The notes beneath the pieces are model-generated. The model was not told the origin of the DNA. It saw nothing but the letters and a program-made list of their open reading frames with translations, and searched no databases. Positions 1,050 to 2,485 of a stretch of 15,998 bases of DNA are shown here, piece after piece. The translations under genes were made by a program, and so were the position numbers. Each line of letters starts with the position of its first letter. The stretch's first letter is position 1. Source of the DNA: a virus (lineage: Duplodnaviria > Heunggongvirae > Uroviricota > Caudoviricetes); IMG/VR virus record IMGVR_UViG_2558860274_000005, positions 1-15,998 of that record. One strand, 5' to 3'.

Positions 1050-1332
1050 TAGCCAACCTCAAAAAGAAACTCTATCCACATTAGTCATTACTCATCCATG
1101 CAAGTAGTGGATGAATCTCAATTTCTCCGCTGCTCTATTGCCGTAATCGCCTCCACGCGTTGTTGATGACGACCGCCTTCGTACTGTGCGCCCAGCCACG
1201 CATAGGAGCAATGCTAAACCGAGAGTTCCAGTAAACACCAGTTTTTTCAGGCATCACGCTGGTTTGATTAATTTTTTGTGTTTCATGATTATCGTGCATT
1301 TTTGAACATTTCAGGCTATTTTTCTCGCGTTA

Positions 1333-1367
1333 GGTTCCCGCACAGGTTCCCACGTTTTATGGGAACC
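1333..1367. promoter_or_regulatory. Inverted/direct repeat cluster just upstream of the integrase start; candidate int promoter/operator or attL arm site
   Basis: GGTTCCC at 1333-1339, then GGTTCCCA (1345-1352), 7-nt spacer, TGGGAACC (1360-1367), a perfect 8-bp inverted repeat. Sits 20-55 bp upstream of the int ATG (SD GAGG at 1377-1380). Confidence 0.3.
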
Positions 1368-1387
1368 CGAAATAACGAGGTCGTGTA

Positions 1388-2485
1388 ATGGCGTACTATA
1401 ACATAGAGAAACGACTAAAATCCGATGGCACACCACGCTATCGCTGTAATGTGATTATCAAAGAAAAAGGTGTTATCACTTACAGGGAAAGCAAAACATT
1501 CCCTAAACATGCTCATGCAAAAACATGGGGCACACAGAAAGTGATGGAATTAGATCTATATGGCATTCCATCATCAAATGCAGTTGACGGACTTACAGTC
1601 CGTGACTTACTACACAAATATTTAAATGACCCAAATGCCGGAGGTAAAGCAGGCCGTACTAAAAGATATGTGCTGGAACTGCTTATGGATAGTGACATCT
1701 CCGCGATCAAACTATCTGAACTGACAGAAAATGACGTAATTGAACATTGCAGGCTAAGAAACAACGCTGGTGCAGGTCCAGCTACAGTTAGCCACGATGT
1801 TAGTTATCTTGGCAGTGTTCTGGATGCTGCCAAACCTGTATATGGAATTAATTACACATCAAACCCAGCAAAAGCCGCTCGTCCATATCTACTTAAACTT
1901 GGTTTAATTGGTAAATCAAATCGTCGTAATCGTAGACCGGCATCTGATGAACTGGACATGCTCATTGAAGGTCTTCAACAACGATCTACACATAAATGCT
2001 CAAAAATTCCGTTCGTTGATATCCTCAAATTTTCTGTGTGGTCATGTATGCGAATCGGTGAAGTATGCCGATTACGATGGGAGGATCTCGATCAGGAACA
2101 AAAATCCATACTCGTAAGAGACAGGAAAGATCCACGTAAAAAGGAAGGCAACCATATGAAAGTAGCCTTGCTTGGGGAAGCCTGGGATATCGTCCAACGA
2201 CAACCCAAAAAATCAGAATTCATTTTTCCATATAACAGCACTTCTGTTACTGCGGGATTCCAGAGGGTAAGAAGCAAATTAGGTATTAAAGATCTGCGAT
2301 ACCATGATTTGCGTAGAGAAGGGGCAAGTCGCTTATTTGAGGCTGGTTTTAGTATTGAGGAAGTCGCCCAGGTTACAGGGCATCGTTCATTAAACGTGCT
2401 ATGGCAGGTATATACCGAACTGTATCCGAAATCTTTACATAATCGTTTTGAAGAGCTCCAAAGGAGCAGAAATAAGACCTCTTGA
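1388..2485 (+). CDS. int: Tyrosine-type site-specific recombinase (phage integrase)
   Basis: 365-aa ORF. The C-terminal catalytic region has the conserved Arg (GEVCRLRWEDLD), HxxR (YHDLRREGASRL) and a Tyr-containing segment (VLWQVYTELYP). SD GAGG is 7 nt upstream of the ATG. Confidence 0.9.
   Translation: MAYYNIEKRLKSDGTPRYRCNVIIKEKGVITYRESKTFPKHAHAKTWGTQKVMELDLYGIPSSNAVDGLTVRDLLHKYLNDPNAGGKAGRTKRYVLELLMDSDISAIKLSELTENDVIEHCRLRNNAGAGPATVSHDVSYLGSVLDAAKPVYGINYTSNPAKAARPYLLKLGLIGKSNRRNRRPASDELDMLIEGLQQRSTHKCSKIPFVDILKFSVWSCMRIGEVCRLRWEDLDQEQKSILVRDRKDPRKKEGNHMKVALLGEAWDIVQRQPKKSEFIFPYNSTSVTAGFQRVRSKLGIKDLRYHDLRREGASRLFEAGFSIEEVAQVTGHRSLNVLWQVYTELYPKSLHNRFEELQRSRNKTS

What the first reader, a model, noticed from the sequence alone, without database searches (positions are those of the whole stretch)
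1050..2485. Integrase reads into the prophage with a palindrome at its promoter: KplE1-like architecture, no tRNA at the junction
The int gene lies at the opposite end of the element from the xis-like gene (15265-15537) and is transcribed inward. This is the arrangement I recall for KplE1/CPS-53, where the intS promoter overlaps attL and is autoregulated. An 8-bp perfect inverted repeat (GGTTCCCA-N7-TGGGAACC, 1345-1367) plus an extra GGTTCCC copy lies just upstream of the int start and could be an Int/Xis or repressor binding site. Unlike KplE1 at argW, I could not find a tRNA gene or an obvious att direct repeat in 1050-1387, so the integration target and exact attL are unknown.
Basis: partly seen in the sequence, partly recalled or inferred. 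Interest (0 to 1): 0.45.

Follow-up and report, generated by a model that had tools for sequence, protein, structure and literature searches.

The report
dusA-type prophage integrase landed in rpiB
The integrase belongs to a known phage family that normally inserts into the host gene dusA and brings a spare dusA start with it. Here a decayed copy sits off-target in the sugar gene rpiB of Escherichia albertii KF1, and the palindrome is part of a set of five repeated sites that most likely bind the integrase.

Summary

The target is now known. The integrase is a dusA-associated integrase (DAI). An identical protein lies beside dusA in E. coli, and the arm-plus-int sequence is at dusA in all 740 complete genomes that carry it. 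Bases 1204-1299 (minus strand) are the phage-borne replacement 5' end of dusA.

The window matches E. albertii KF1 (CP007025) exactly. There a 15.6-kb remnant of an mEp460-like prophage sits in rpiB, not dusA. attL crosses over at GCAT 1200-1203. attR lies 767 nt beyond the window. Removing the element restores an intact yjdP-rpiB with 0/948 mismatches. The rpiB site matches the dusA attB at 15/20 positions.

The palindrome is two of three P' arm sites, and two more copies sit in the P arm. In relatives and free phages the same 2+3 layout recurs. The motif changes together in all copies and tracks residues of the integrase N-terminal domain. These are most likely arm-type integrase sites. Autoregulation of int is inferred, not shown.

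The xis-like gene is an RdfN homolog. This is a known kind of system with an unusual insertion site and a site layout not mentioned in the two papers I read.

The parts
1118..1203 (-). 3' terminal 86 nt of rpiB, including the stop codon at 1118-1120, cut off from the rest of the gene by the insertion
   Evidence: Identical to intact rpiB of E. coli and of E. albertii CP024131. The 5' 364 nt of rpiB lie beyond attR in KF1, where a 124-aa RpiB' is annotated.
1184..1203 (.). Pseudo-attB half-site in rpiB (CTGTGCGCCCAGCCACGCAT). The attL crossover lies within or next to GCAT at 1200-1203.
   Evidence: 15/20 identical to the dusA attB half CTGTCCGTCCAGTCGAGCAT. To the left the sequence is rpiB; to the right it is identical to phage attP. 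attR in KF1 is ...CCTATCGAGCAT|CGACAATC. Excising the element restores yjdP-rpiB with 0/948 mismatches.
1204..1299 (-). Phage-borne replacement 5' end of dusA (MHDNHETQKINQTSVMPEKTGVYWNSRFSIAPM...). Here it is fused out of frame to the rpiB tail, giving the 54-aa hybrid ORF 1135-1299.
   Evidence: In E. coli ESBL15 the same DNA forms the first 32 codons of the annotated dusA. The hybrid ORF occurs on only one contig of the collection, CP007025 (translation).
1300..1332 (.). Conserved AT-rich block between the phage-borne dusA start codon and the first repeat. It probably holds the divergent promoters, but these are not mapped.
   Evidence: A similar block (TTTTTGACATTT..GTATTTTT..TTTATCAG) recurs across about 26 related elements. 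The consensus promoter scan finds nothing here. Durand 2021 showed that a Vibrio dusA element supplies a new dusA promoter.
1333..1339 (+). P'1, putative arm-type integrase site (GGTTCCC)
   Evidence: Its position and 12-nt spacing to P'2 are conserved in relatives, with the motif co-varying.
1345..1352 (+). P'2, putative arm-type integrase site (GGTTCCCA); left arm of the palindrome
1360..1367 (-). P'3, putative arm-type integrase site in inverted orientation (GGTTCCCA on the minus strand); right arm of the palindrome. It ends 20 nt before the int ATG.
1388..2485 (+). int, a dusA-associated tyrosine integrase of 365 aa. A GAGG ribosome-binding site lies at 1377-1380.
   Evidence: PF00589. The identical protein lies next to dusA at all ten places inspected; the index lists it in 19,303 blocks of the collection. 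It is 100% identical to the integrase of phage 1720a-02 and 98.4% to that of mEp460. The N-terminal 60 residues model as three strands plus a helix, pLDDT 84.
15265..15537 (+). rdfN-like recombination directionality factor (PrtN family), at the far end of the prophage
   Evidence: PF11112 and PHROG 1300 'excisionase'. Identical to the protein in E. coli dusA prophages. It lies just upstream of attP in free phages. RdfN was shown experimentally to be the excision factor of dusA elements (Durand 2021).
15564..15998 (-). YafO-like toxin gene. Together with a 179-aa gene just beyond the window it forms a variable cargo module between rdfN and attR.
   Evidence: PF13957. The same pair occurs at the attR end of E. 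coli dusA prophages, and is replaced by a SocA_Panacea pair in others. Beyond the window, in extended coordinates: P-arm sites GGTTCCC 16697-16703 and GGCTCCC 16708-16714; attR GCAT 16762-16765.

Best explanation
Bases 1184-2485 are the attL end of a defective mEp460-like lambdoid prophage whose recombination module belongs to the dusA-associated integrase (DAI) family.

**Shown**
- The integrase is identical to one found next to dusA in E. coli (all ten places inspected).
- Bases 1204-1299 are the phage's own copy of the dusA 5' end, which normally replaces the host 5' end on integration.
- In E. albertii KF1 the phage instead recombined with a look-alike site near the 3' end of rpiB. The exchange occurred at the normal point of attP (GCAT, 1200-1203).
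- rpiB was split cleanly. The first 122 codons now lie at attR, 15.6 kb away.
- The prophage then lost all lysis and virion genes apart from the side tail-fibre genes.

**Inferred, likely**
- The three GGTTCCC copies (1333, 1345, 1361 inverted) are the P' arm-type sites. Two copies about 55-65 nt from the core on the other arm are P1 and P2.
- They are bound by the small N-terminal beta-sheet domain of the integrase while the catalytic domains hold the core, as in lambda Int.
- RdfN (15265-15537) would direct excision.

**Inferred, weaker**
- The P' sites fill the only space between the int ribosome-binding site and the divergent phage-borne dusA start.
- Bound integrase would therefore repress its own gene, as IntS does in KplE1, and might also affect the phage-supplied dusA promoter.
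For: **Family and normal target**
- DNA 1184-2700 matches integrase plus dusA in E. coli at 95.7-99.7%. Annotation shows dusA divergent from int, with its start at window-equivalent 1299.
- The exact integrase protein sits next to a Dus gene at all 10 places inspected.
- 740 of 5,426 complete E. coli genomes carry the arm plus the int 5' end. The same number, 740, carry the dusA::phage junction.
- Farrugia 2015 defines the family and the replacement 5' end.

**Insertion in rpiB**
- The window is 100% identical to KF1 (accession confirmed).
- KF1 gene order is alsB-alsR-rpiB'(124 aa)-179aa-yafO-rdfN...int-hybrid ORF-yjdP-SDR.
- Other E. albertii have an intact SDR-yjdP-rpiB-alsR.
- Excision in silico gives 0/948 mismatches to the intact locus.
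- The reconstructed attP is contiguous in free phages mEp460, SKA5 and Lys8385Vzw.

**Arm-type sites**
- Five copies lie in a 2+3 layout on both arms.
- 29 of 38 relatives keep the layout '2 direct copies 10-13 nt apart (12 in 25 of the 29) plus 1 inverted', against 0.77 expected.
- The motif differs by lineage (GGTTCCC, GTACACC, GGACACC, GCACCCC, and others), but the copies within one element agree, with mean identity 0.94.
- In YeP2 and EKP1 the P-arm pair carries the same lineage-specific motif as the P' triplet, while the core stays TCGAGCAT.
- Motif class tracks integrase residues 5-7, 21-24 and 29-34, which lie in predicted beta strands.
- The P-arm pair is unchanged across E. coli prophages with different repressors and different cargo.

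**Excision factor**
- PF11112 and PHROG 1300 match the 90-aa protein. RdfN function was shown by Durand 2021.

**Analogy for autoregulation**
- In KplE1 the P' arm sites overlap the intS promoter and IntS represses it.
Against: - No binding data exist for this integrase. RdfN is co-inherited with int and attP, so comparison alone cannot exclude that some or all repeats are RdfN sites.
- Sequence search of solved structures matched only the catalytic domain.
- No promoter was detected in 1204-1387, so overlap of the sites with the int promoter is an assumption.
- The correlation between motif class and N-domain residues could simply reflect shared ancestry.
- Similarity of the rpiB site to attB is modest. 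By my estimate a 15/20 match should occur about 30 times by chance in a genome of this size.
- Only one assembly shows the rpiB insertion.
Confidence: 0.75

Rival explanations
1. The repeats are binding sites for the excision factor RdfN (the PrtN-family protein at 15265-15537), not for the integrase. Excision factors often bind phased direct repeats in att arms and can repress int, as TorI does in KplE1.
For: - The direct copies are spaced 11-12 nt apart, about one helical turn.
- rdfN is always linked to attP, so it would co-vary with the sites just as int does.
- TorI has five sites in KplE1 attL, and two of them mediate repression of intS.
Against: - The sites lie on both arms in a 2+3 layout, far from the core (about -65/-54 and +130 to +165). 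To my knowledge that is the classic pattern of integrase arm sites, whereas excision-factor sites usually lie on one arm between core and arm sites.
- RdfN differs by 13% between E. coli prophages that share identical P-arm sites.
- Motif class tracks residues in the predicted beta-sheet of the integrase N-domain.
Confidence: 0.15
2. The palindrome acts as an RNA hairpin, either in the int 5' untranslated region or on the opposite-strand transcript reading toward the phage-borne dusA. It would control translation or stability, or it is the operator of a dimeric phage or host repressor.
For: - An 8-bp stem folds at about -12.6 kcal/mol on the plus strand. The minus-strand version folds at -21.9 kcal/mol with z = -3.3.
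- In L044 both palindrome arms carry the matching T-to-C / A-to-G change.
Against: - The plus-strand fold is no better than shuffled sequence (z = -0.37).
- In the closest relatives (L046, L074, L045) the two arms differ at 1-2 of 8 positions.
- A hairpin explains neither the third direct copy nor the two P-arm copies, which lie 15-45 kb away in the prophage and co-vary with the others.
- No T-run follows the stem, so it is not a terminator.
- The sites do not follow the repressor type.
Confidence: 0.05
3. The rpiB location reflects an assembly error or a later chromosomal rearrangement, such as homologous recombination between prophages, and not integrase-mediated insertion.
For: Only one assembly (KF1, sequenced in 2014) shows the junction. 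None of 5,426 complete E. coli genomes has it.
Against: - Both junctions lie exactly at the attP exchange point.
- rpiB is split without loss or gain of a base, and GCAT is present at both ends.
- A simple deletion between a dusA-resident prophage and rpiB would remove dnaB (gene order).
- A second, independent off-target junction at the same exchange point exists in an E. coli draft genome (L037).
Confidence: 0.03

Closest known systems
dusA-associated integrases and their prophages or islands (Farrugia et al. 2015, PMC4482086); closest sequenced phages are Enterobacteria phage mEp460 and Escherichia phages 1720a-02, SKA5 and Lys8385Vzw
   Same: - The integrase is 98-100% identical.
- attP is the same.
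- The element carries a replacement dusA 5' end.
- int is divergent from that 5' end, and a PrtN-family gene lies across attP.
   Different: - This copy is in rpiB, not dusA.
- The flanking repeat is reduced to GCAT instead of the 21-bp semi-conserved repeat.
- The prophage is a 15.6-kb remnant.
- Farrugia reported non-cognate sites (dusB, rluA, abgT) for family members, not rpiB. The words 'arm' and 'palindrome' do not occur in that paper.
IMEVchUSA3 Int/RdfN module of Vibrio dusA islands (Durand et al. 2021, PMC8409611)
   Same: - It has the same family of integrase (Vibrio relatives are about 50-55% identical).
- A PrtN-domain RdfN is the sole excision factor.
[quoted passage not shown]
   Different: - There rdfN is driven by an AcaCD-responsive promoter of a mobilisable island. 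Here the element is a lambdoid prophage with cI/cro, and what drives rdfN is unknown.
- 'Arm-type' does not occur in that paper.
KplE1 (CPS-53) IntS/TorI module (Panis et al. 2010, PMC2951348)
   Same: - int and the excision-factor gene lie at opposite prophage ends.
- The attL arm sits immediately upstream of int.
- P' arm sites there overlap the -10 of the intS promoter and IntS represses it. This is the best functional analogy for 1333-1367.
   Different: - The target is tRNA argW versus a protein-coding gene.
- Excision-factor families differ. RdfN here is PrtN-type (PF11112). That TorI belongs to a different family is my recollection, not tested.
- Only PF00589 is detected in this integrase.
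- No promoter or regulation data exist here.
Lambda Int arm-type sites (P1, P2, P'1-3) and lambda secondary attachment sites (from my own knowledge)
   Same: - Five arm sites lie in a 2+3 arrangement, distinct from the core.
- attP spans about 235 bp.
- Insertion at a partly matching secondary site uses the normal exchange point.
   Different: - Site sequences, spacing and orientation differ; one P' site is inverted.
- In the phage, attP lies between the excision-factor gene and int.
- The core lies inside a conserved coding motif (SIAPMLDWTD of DusA).

Membership tests
dusA-associated integrase (DAI) elements | Tyrosine recombinase homologous to the integrases found next to dusA | tested here: met
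   PF00589. The identical 365-aa protein is adjacent to Dus genes at 10 of 10 places inspected. 34 homologs from species-representative genomes are also adjacent to dusA.
dusA-associated integrase (DAI) elements | Integrated in the 5' end of dusA | tested here: not met
   This copy is flanked by rpiB halves. The same phage arm is at dusA in 740 of 740 complete E. coli genomes that carry it. The family assignment therefore stands; only this insertion is off-target.
dusA-associated integrase (DAI) elements | Element supplies a replacement 5' end for dusA | tested here: met
   Bases 1204-1299 (-) encode MHDNHETQKINQTSVMPEKTGVYWNSRFSIAPM. This is identical to the N-terminus of the annotated DusA in ESBL15.
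dusA-associated integrase (DAI) elements | Flanked by semi-conserved 21-bp attL/attR repeats derived from dusA | tested here: inconclusive
   attP and the dusA attB share TCGAGCATAGG within a longer semi-conserved stretch. At rpiB, attL and attR share only GCAT. I did not compare against the published logo.
dusA-associated integrase (DAI) elements | PrtN-family excision factor (RdfN) on the other side of attP | tested here: met
   PF11112 at E=3e-24 and PHROG 1300. Synteny in free phages. Function shown by Durand 2021.
KplE1-type recombination module | int and the excision-factor gene at opposite ends of the prophage, int reading inward from attL | tested here: met
   int at 1388-2485 (+) next to attL. 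rdfN at 15265-15537 near attR.
KplE1-type recombination module | Integration into a tRNA gene (argW) | tested here: not met
   No tRNA in the window and no Rfam hit. The target is dusA normally and rpiB here.
KplE1-type recombination module | attL arm sites overlap the int promoter; int is negatively autoregulated | not testable with these tools
   The sites end 20 nt before the int ATG and fill the intergenic space. No promoter is predicted and no expression data exist.
Heterobivalent (lambda-type) integrases with arm-type sites | Repeated sites on both att arms, distinct from the core, co-varying with the integrase | tested here: met
   2+3 copies. Coordinated motif change in the P and P' arms of YeP2, EKP1 and mEp460. 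29 of 38 relatives keep the layout. Motif class tracks N-domain residues.
Heterobivalent (lambda-type) integrases with arm-type sites | N-terminal three-stranded-sheet-plus-helix arm-binding domain | tested here: inconclusive

The most novel reading that the evidence does not exclude
The three P' sites would serve both as recombination arm sites and as a shared operator. They sit between the divergent int gene and the phage-supplied dusA 5' end. Integrase occupancy would then set the level of integrase and also the expression of the host tRNA-dihydrouridine synthase, whose promoter the phage has replaced. That would give the prophage a handle on host tRNA modification. The lineage-specific pairs of motif and N-domain would also form a natural recognition code for arm-binding domains.
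Probability: 0.2. Interest if true: 0.55.

Novelty: new member of a known kind. Interest (0 to 1): 0.33.

Why it matters
- **Annotation.** The result turns an 'integrase with unknown target' into a fully delimited element and explains why no tRNA or direct repeat was found.
- **Fidelity of the integrase.** It documents an off-target insertion by an otherwise faithful integrase: at dusA in all 740 complete E. coli genomes that carry it. The insertion truncates RpiB by 27 residues (122 of 149 native residues are retained).
- **Testable sites.** The conserved 2+3 set of co-varying repeats gives concrete arm-site candidates for a widespread integrase family. The two key papers on that family do not mention arm sites.
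- **Engineering.** At least four clear motif classes, each paired with a distinct N-terminal domain sequence, could help in engineering orthogonal integrases.
- **Scope.** None of this overturns current understanding.

Tried and rejected
**Searches that found nothing**
- tRNA/tmRNA and Rfam searches of the junction.
- Direct-repeat search in 1050-1400: only short chance repeats. The real att repeat is 4 bp.
- Sigma-70 promoter scan of 1050-2900. The only hits are at 2482-2511 and 2554-2581, downstream of int; the first lies just upstream of the dinI remnant and overlaps the last bases of int.

**The integrase N-terminal domain**
- Pfam on residues 1-121 at E<=10: no family.
- Profile search of PDB sequences: only catalytic-domain hits.
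- Single-sequence AlphaFold of residues 1-70: pLDDT 48.6, unusable. It was repeated with an alignment.
- Fold searches with that model: no specific match.

**Finding the source genome**
- Look-ups with YafO, the SDR, the integrase and a 173-aa ORF returned only other genomes.
- The hybrid 54-aa ORF and the 86-aa rep fragment did find KF1.
- KF1 is not the GTDB representative, since no 100% integrase hit appeared. Its dusA locus could therefore not be reached, and whether dusA is occupied in KF1 remains unknown.

**Readings considered and rejected**
- Deletion or inversion between a dusA-resident prophage and rpiB: the deletion would remove dnaB, and both junctions are reciprocal and exact.
- Repressor operator: the sites do not follow immunity type.
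- Intrinsic terminator: no T-run follows the stem.

**Literature**
- A search for rpiB as a prophage integration site returned one paper sharing the three search terms; judged from its title and abstract it concerns O-antigen switching, and I did not read it.
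Full report
**1. Checking the observation**

The window holds a 365-aa ORF at 1388-2485 (+) with a Phage_integrase domain. Upstream lie AGGTTCCC (1332-1339) and AGGTTCCC(A) (1344-1352), followed by the inverted TGGGAACC (1360-1367). The last two form a perfect 8-nt palindrome with a 7-nt spacer. ARAGORN finds no tRNA, and Rfam finds nothing relevant at E<=1. The 'xis-like' ORF at 15265-15537 is a PrtN-family protein (PF11112) and matches PHROG 1300 'excisionase'. The description is therefore accurate.

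Taken alone, the palindrome and the motif count are not beyond chance. GGYTCCC occurs 5 times against 2.6 expected, and 24 of 200 shuffles reach that count. Its significance comes from clustering and from comparison with relatives (section 4).

**2. What the integrase is**

Against 5,426 complete E. coli genomes, bases 1184-2700 match 'integrase | dusA' at 95.7-99.7%, while 754-1203 match 'yjdP | rpiB'. In E. coli ESBL15, dusA is divergent from int, and its annotated start corresponds to window position 1299. The exact integrase protein lies next to a Dus gene at all ten places inspected; the index lists the protein in 19,303 blocks of the collection.

This is the dusA-associated integrase (DAI) family of Farrugia et al. 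2015. Its elements insert in the 5' end of dusA and bring a replacement 5' end. Bases 1204-1299 (minus strand) are that replacement: they encode MHDNHETQKINQTSVMPEKTGVYWNSRFSIAPM.

The PrtN-family protein corresponds to RdfN. Durand et al. 2021 showed RdfN to be the only excision factor needed by dusA elements, and showed that such an element supplies a new dusA promoter. The integrase is 100% identical to that of phage 1720a-02 and 98.4% to that of phage mEp460.

**3. Where the element is in this genome**

The hybrid 54-aa ORF 1135-1299 occurs on a single contig of the whole collection, CP007025. That accession is E. albertii KF1, and the window is 100% identical to it.

A second look-up gave the whole locus. 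The gene order is alsB-alsR-rpiB'(124 aa)-179aa-yafO-rdfN-...-cI-cro-...-tail fibre-DUF4765-int-hybrid ORF-yjdP-SDR. Other E. albertii genomes have an intact SDR-yjdP-rpiB-alsR.

The att sequences, written in window orientation, are:

| Site | Sequence |
|---|---|
| attB' (rpiB) | CTGTGCGCCCAGCCACGCAT\|CGACAATC |
| attL | CTGTGCGCCCAGCCACGCAT\|AGGAGCAATGC |
| attR | GGTACATCCTATCGAGCAT\|CGACAATC |
| attB (dusA) | CTGTCCGTCCAGTCGAGCAT\|AGGCGCGATGG |

The reconstructed attP...CCTATCGAGCAT|AGGAGCAATGC..., is contiguous in the free phages mEp460, SKA5 and Lys8385Vzw.

Deleting 1204 through extended position 16765 restores a yjdP-rpiB sequence with 0 mismatches in 948 nt to E. albertii CP024131. 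This is a clean, reciprocal, integrase-type insertion of 15.56 kb into rpiB, 86 nt before the gene's end. attL exchanges at GCAT 1200-1203. attR lies at extended position 16762-16765, 767 nt beyond the window.

The rpiB half-site matches the dusA half-site at 15 of 20 positions. By my estimate, matches of that quality are expected about 30 times by chance in a genome of this size. The exact exchange point is therefore the stronger evidence. attP carries the inverted repeat CCTA-TCGAGCA-TAGG. A 7-bp overlap of TCGAGCA would fit the data, with rpiB matching it at 4 of 7 positions, but that is inference.

RpiB is truncated to 122 native residues of 149. No complete E. coli genome has the rpiB junction. 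The phage arm occurs in 740 genomes, and the dusA::phage junction also occurs in 740. The integrase is thus normally faithful.

The element is defective. Apart from the side tail-fibre genes (6646-8236), it has no lysis or virion genes between the replication-gene fragment (8818-9078) and int.

**4. What the palindrome is**

In KF1, GGTTCCC and GGCTCCC also occur as a direct pair 11 nt apart in the other arm. They lie at extended positions 16697-16703 and 16708-16714, about 65 and 54 nt from the core. That gives five copies in a 2+3 layout on the two arms of attP, far from the core.

A scan of species-representative genomes returned 52 integrase relatives, 34 of them next to dusA. In their dusA-int intergenic regions the same layout recurs: two direct copies 12 nt apart and an inverted copy. 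The motif itself differs by lineage: GGTTCCC, GTACACC, GGACACC, GCACCCC, GGTATCC and GGGTCAC.

- The layout is found in 29 of 38 regions, against 0.77 expected from shuffles.
- In 24 of 32 regions the three 8-mers agree at 20 or more of 24 summed positions.
- In free phages YeP2 (GCACCCC) and EKP1 (GTACACC), the P-arm pair carries the same lineage-specific motif as the P' triplet. The core stays TCGAGCAT.
- Motif class tracks integrase residues 5-7, 21-24 and 29-34. These fall in the three predicted beta strands of a confident model of residues 1-75, which has pLDDT 84 and strand-strand-strand-helix topology.
- The P-arm pair is unchanged among E. coli prophages with different repressors and cargo.

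This pattern is what is expected of arm-type sites read by an N-terminal arm-binding domain, as in lambda Int. The fold searches gave no specific match, so the domain assignment rests on topology only.

An RNA-hairpin reading fits poorly. The plus-strand fold is no better than shuffled sequence (z = -0.37; the minus-strand fold reaches z = -3.3). The closest relatives have imperfect palindromes. A hairpin also cannot explain the direct copy or the distant P-arm copies.

RdfN sites remain a real alternative, because rdfN is inherited together with attP.

**5. How it most likely works**

- **Shown:** family identity, the att sites, the off-target location, and the conserved repeat architecture.
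- **Inferred (about 0.7):** the integrase binds the five repeats through its N-terminal domain and the core through its catalytic domains. RdfN directs excision.
- **Inferred more weakly (about 0.35):** the P' sites occupy 1333-1367, between the phage-borne dusA start (1299) and the int ribosome-binding site (1377-1380). Bound integrase would therefore repress int, as IntS does at the P' sites overlapping the intS -10 in KplE1.

No promoter was predicted in this interval.

**6. Comparison with known systems**

The element is a member of the DAI family by integrase identity, replacement 5' end, attP and RdfN. Only the target of this particular copy departs from the family definition. It resembles KplE1 in layout but not in target or protein families.

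Farrugia reported non-cognate sites (dusB, rluA, abgT) but not rpiB. A literature search gave no report of rpiB as a prophage site. Neither key paper mentions arm sites.

**7. Verdict**

The feature is a known kind of recombination module. It has an unusual secondary insertion site and a clear, previously unremarked set of co-varying candidate arm sites. Interest is modest.

Noticed in passing
L037:10138-10470 (E. coli draft GCA_007824705.1, contig AAIYTD010000011.1): This looks like a second off-target insertion of the same phage. The P arm and core ...CCTATCGAGCAT are joined at the same exchange point to TGCCGCGCCGGTACAGG..., an autotransporter-like sequence. That sequence lies next to sigma-54 activator and PTS genes instead of the dusA 5' end and zur. 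The other junction runs off the contig.
   Followed up: partly
L100:1590-1760 (E. coli K-12 MG1655 dusA 5' end) versus L101 (strain 5132): K-12 DusA starts MHGNSEMQKINQTSAMPEK..., which is 80% identical at DNA level to the phage-borne 5' end (window 1184-1302). No int or arm sites follow, and the DUF2713 genes (yjbL/yjbM) lie upstream. Strain 5132 has a different start, MPAESHTVYPAYRFSIAPML, with zur directly upstream. The K-12 arrangement looks like the scar of an old dusA island. Most complete E. coli genomes without the phage share the K-12-type 5' end.
   Followed up: partly
L064, L065, L066, L068, L069, L072, L086 and others (upstream of int): Integrase relatives at 58-64% identity in Xenorhabdus, Serratia and Pseudomonas lundensis lie next to other genes, not dusA. 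By N-terminal sequence these look like a DEAD-box helicase, upp, pgl, pyrD and an NlpC/P60 lipoprotein. They still keep a vestigial TTTTCGTGCAT (the dusA start mimic) and two direct GCACCCC sites, while the inverted third copy is mostly degraded. This suggests sub-lineages retargeted from dusA.
   Followed up: partly
L092:3670-4000 (Xenorhabdus innexi): A P arm with GCACCCC x2 and a core (CATCAAGCAT) is followed by a dusA 5' mimic and a P' arm with GTACACC x3. This looks like the junction between two different dusA elements inserted in tandem.
   Followed up: no
window 2482-2675: A promoter-like TTGACA-18-AAAAAT (2482-2511) is followed directly by a LexA-box-like TACTGTATACAAACACAGTA (2514-2533). 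Both precede a dinI-like ORF that is cut to 42 aa here (2547-2675), against 82 aa in E. coli prophages. Similarity to E. coli ends near 2587.
   Followed up: partly
window 2818-6222: A 1,134-aa ORF matches DUF4765 over its full length (1,707 bits). It lies as cargo between the dinI remnant and the tail-fibre genes. In E. coli ESBL15 the same gene is broken into pseudogene pieces.
   Followed up: no
window 6917-9078: The prophage is a deletion remnant. The side tail-fibre gene (6917-8236, -) lies about 600 nt from an 86-aa N-terminal fragment of the replication/HTH_36 gene (8818-9078, -), which is 272-313 aa in intact relatives. No lysis, terminase, head or tail-shaft genes remain. The same 86-aa ORF occurs on three short metagenome contigs.
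   Followed up: partly
window 15564-15998 and 540 nt beyond the window (L038:2525-3064): A YafO-family toxin gene and a 179-aa gene of unknown function (PHROG 8416) sit between rdfN and attR. In other E. coli dusA prophages this slot holds a SocA_Panacea pair or small unannotated genes. It is a variable cargo slot next to attP.
   Followed up: no
window 1245-1252 and 1309-1316: TTTCAGGC occurs twice, 64 nt apart, and mEp460 has three TTTCAGG copies. The first lies in the dusA-mimic coding sequence (the reverse complement encodes MPEK), so this may be coincidence. It could also be a further protein site in the P' arm.
   Followed up: no
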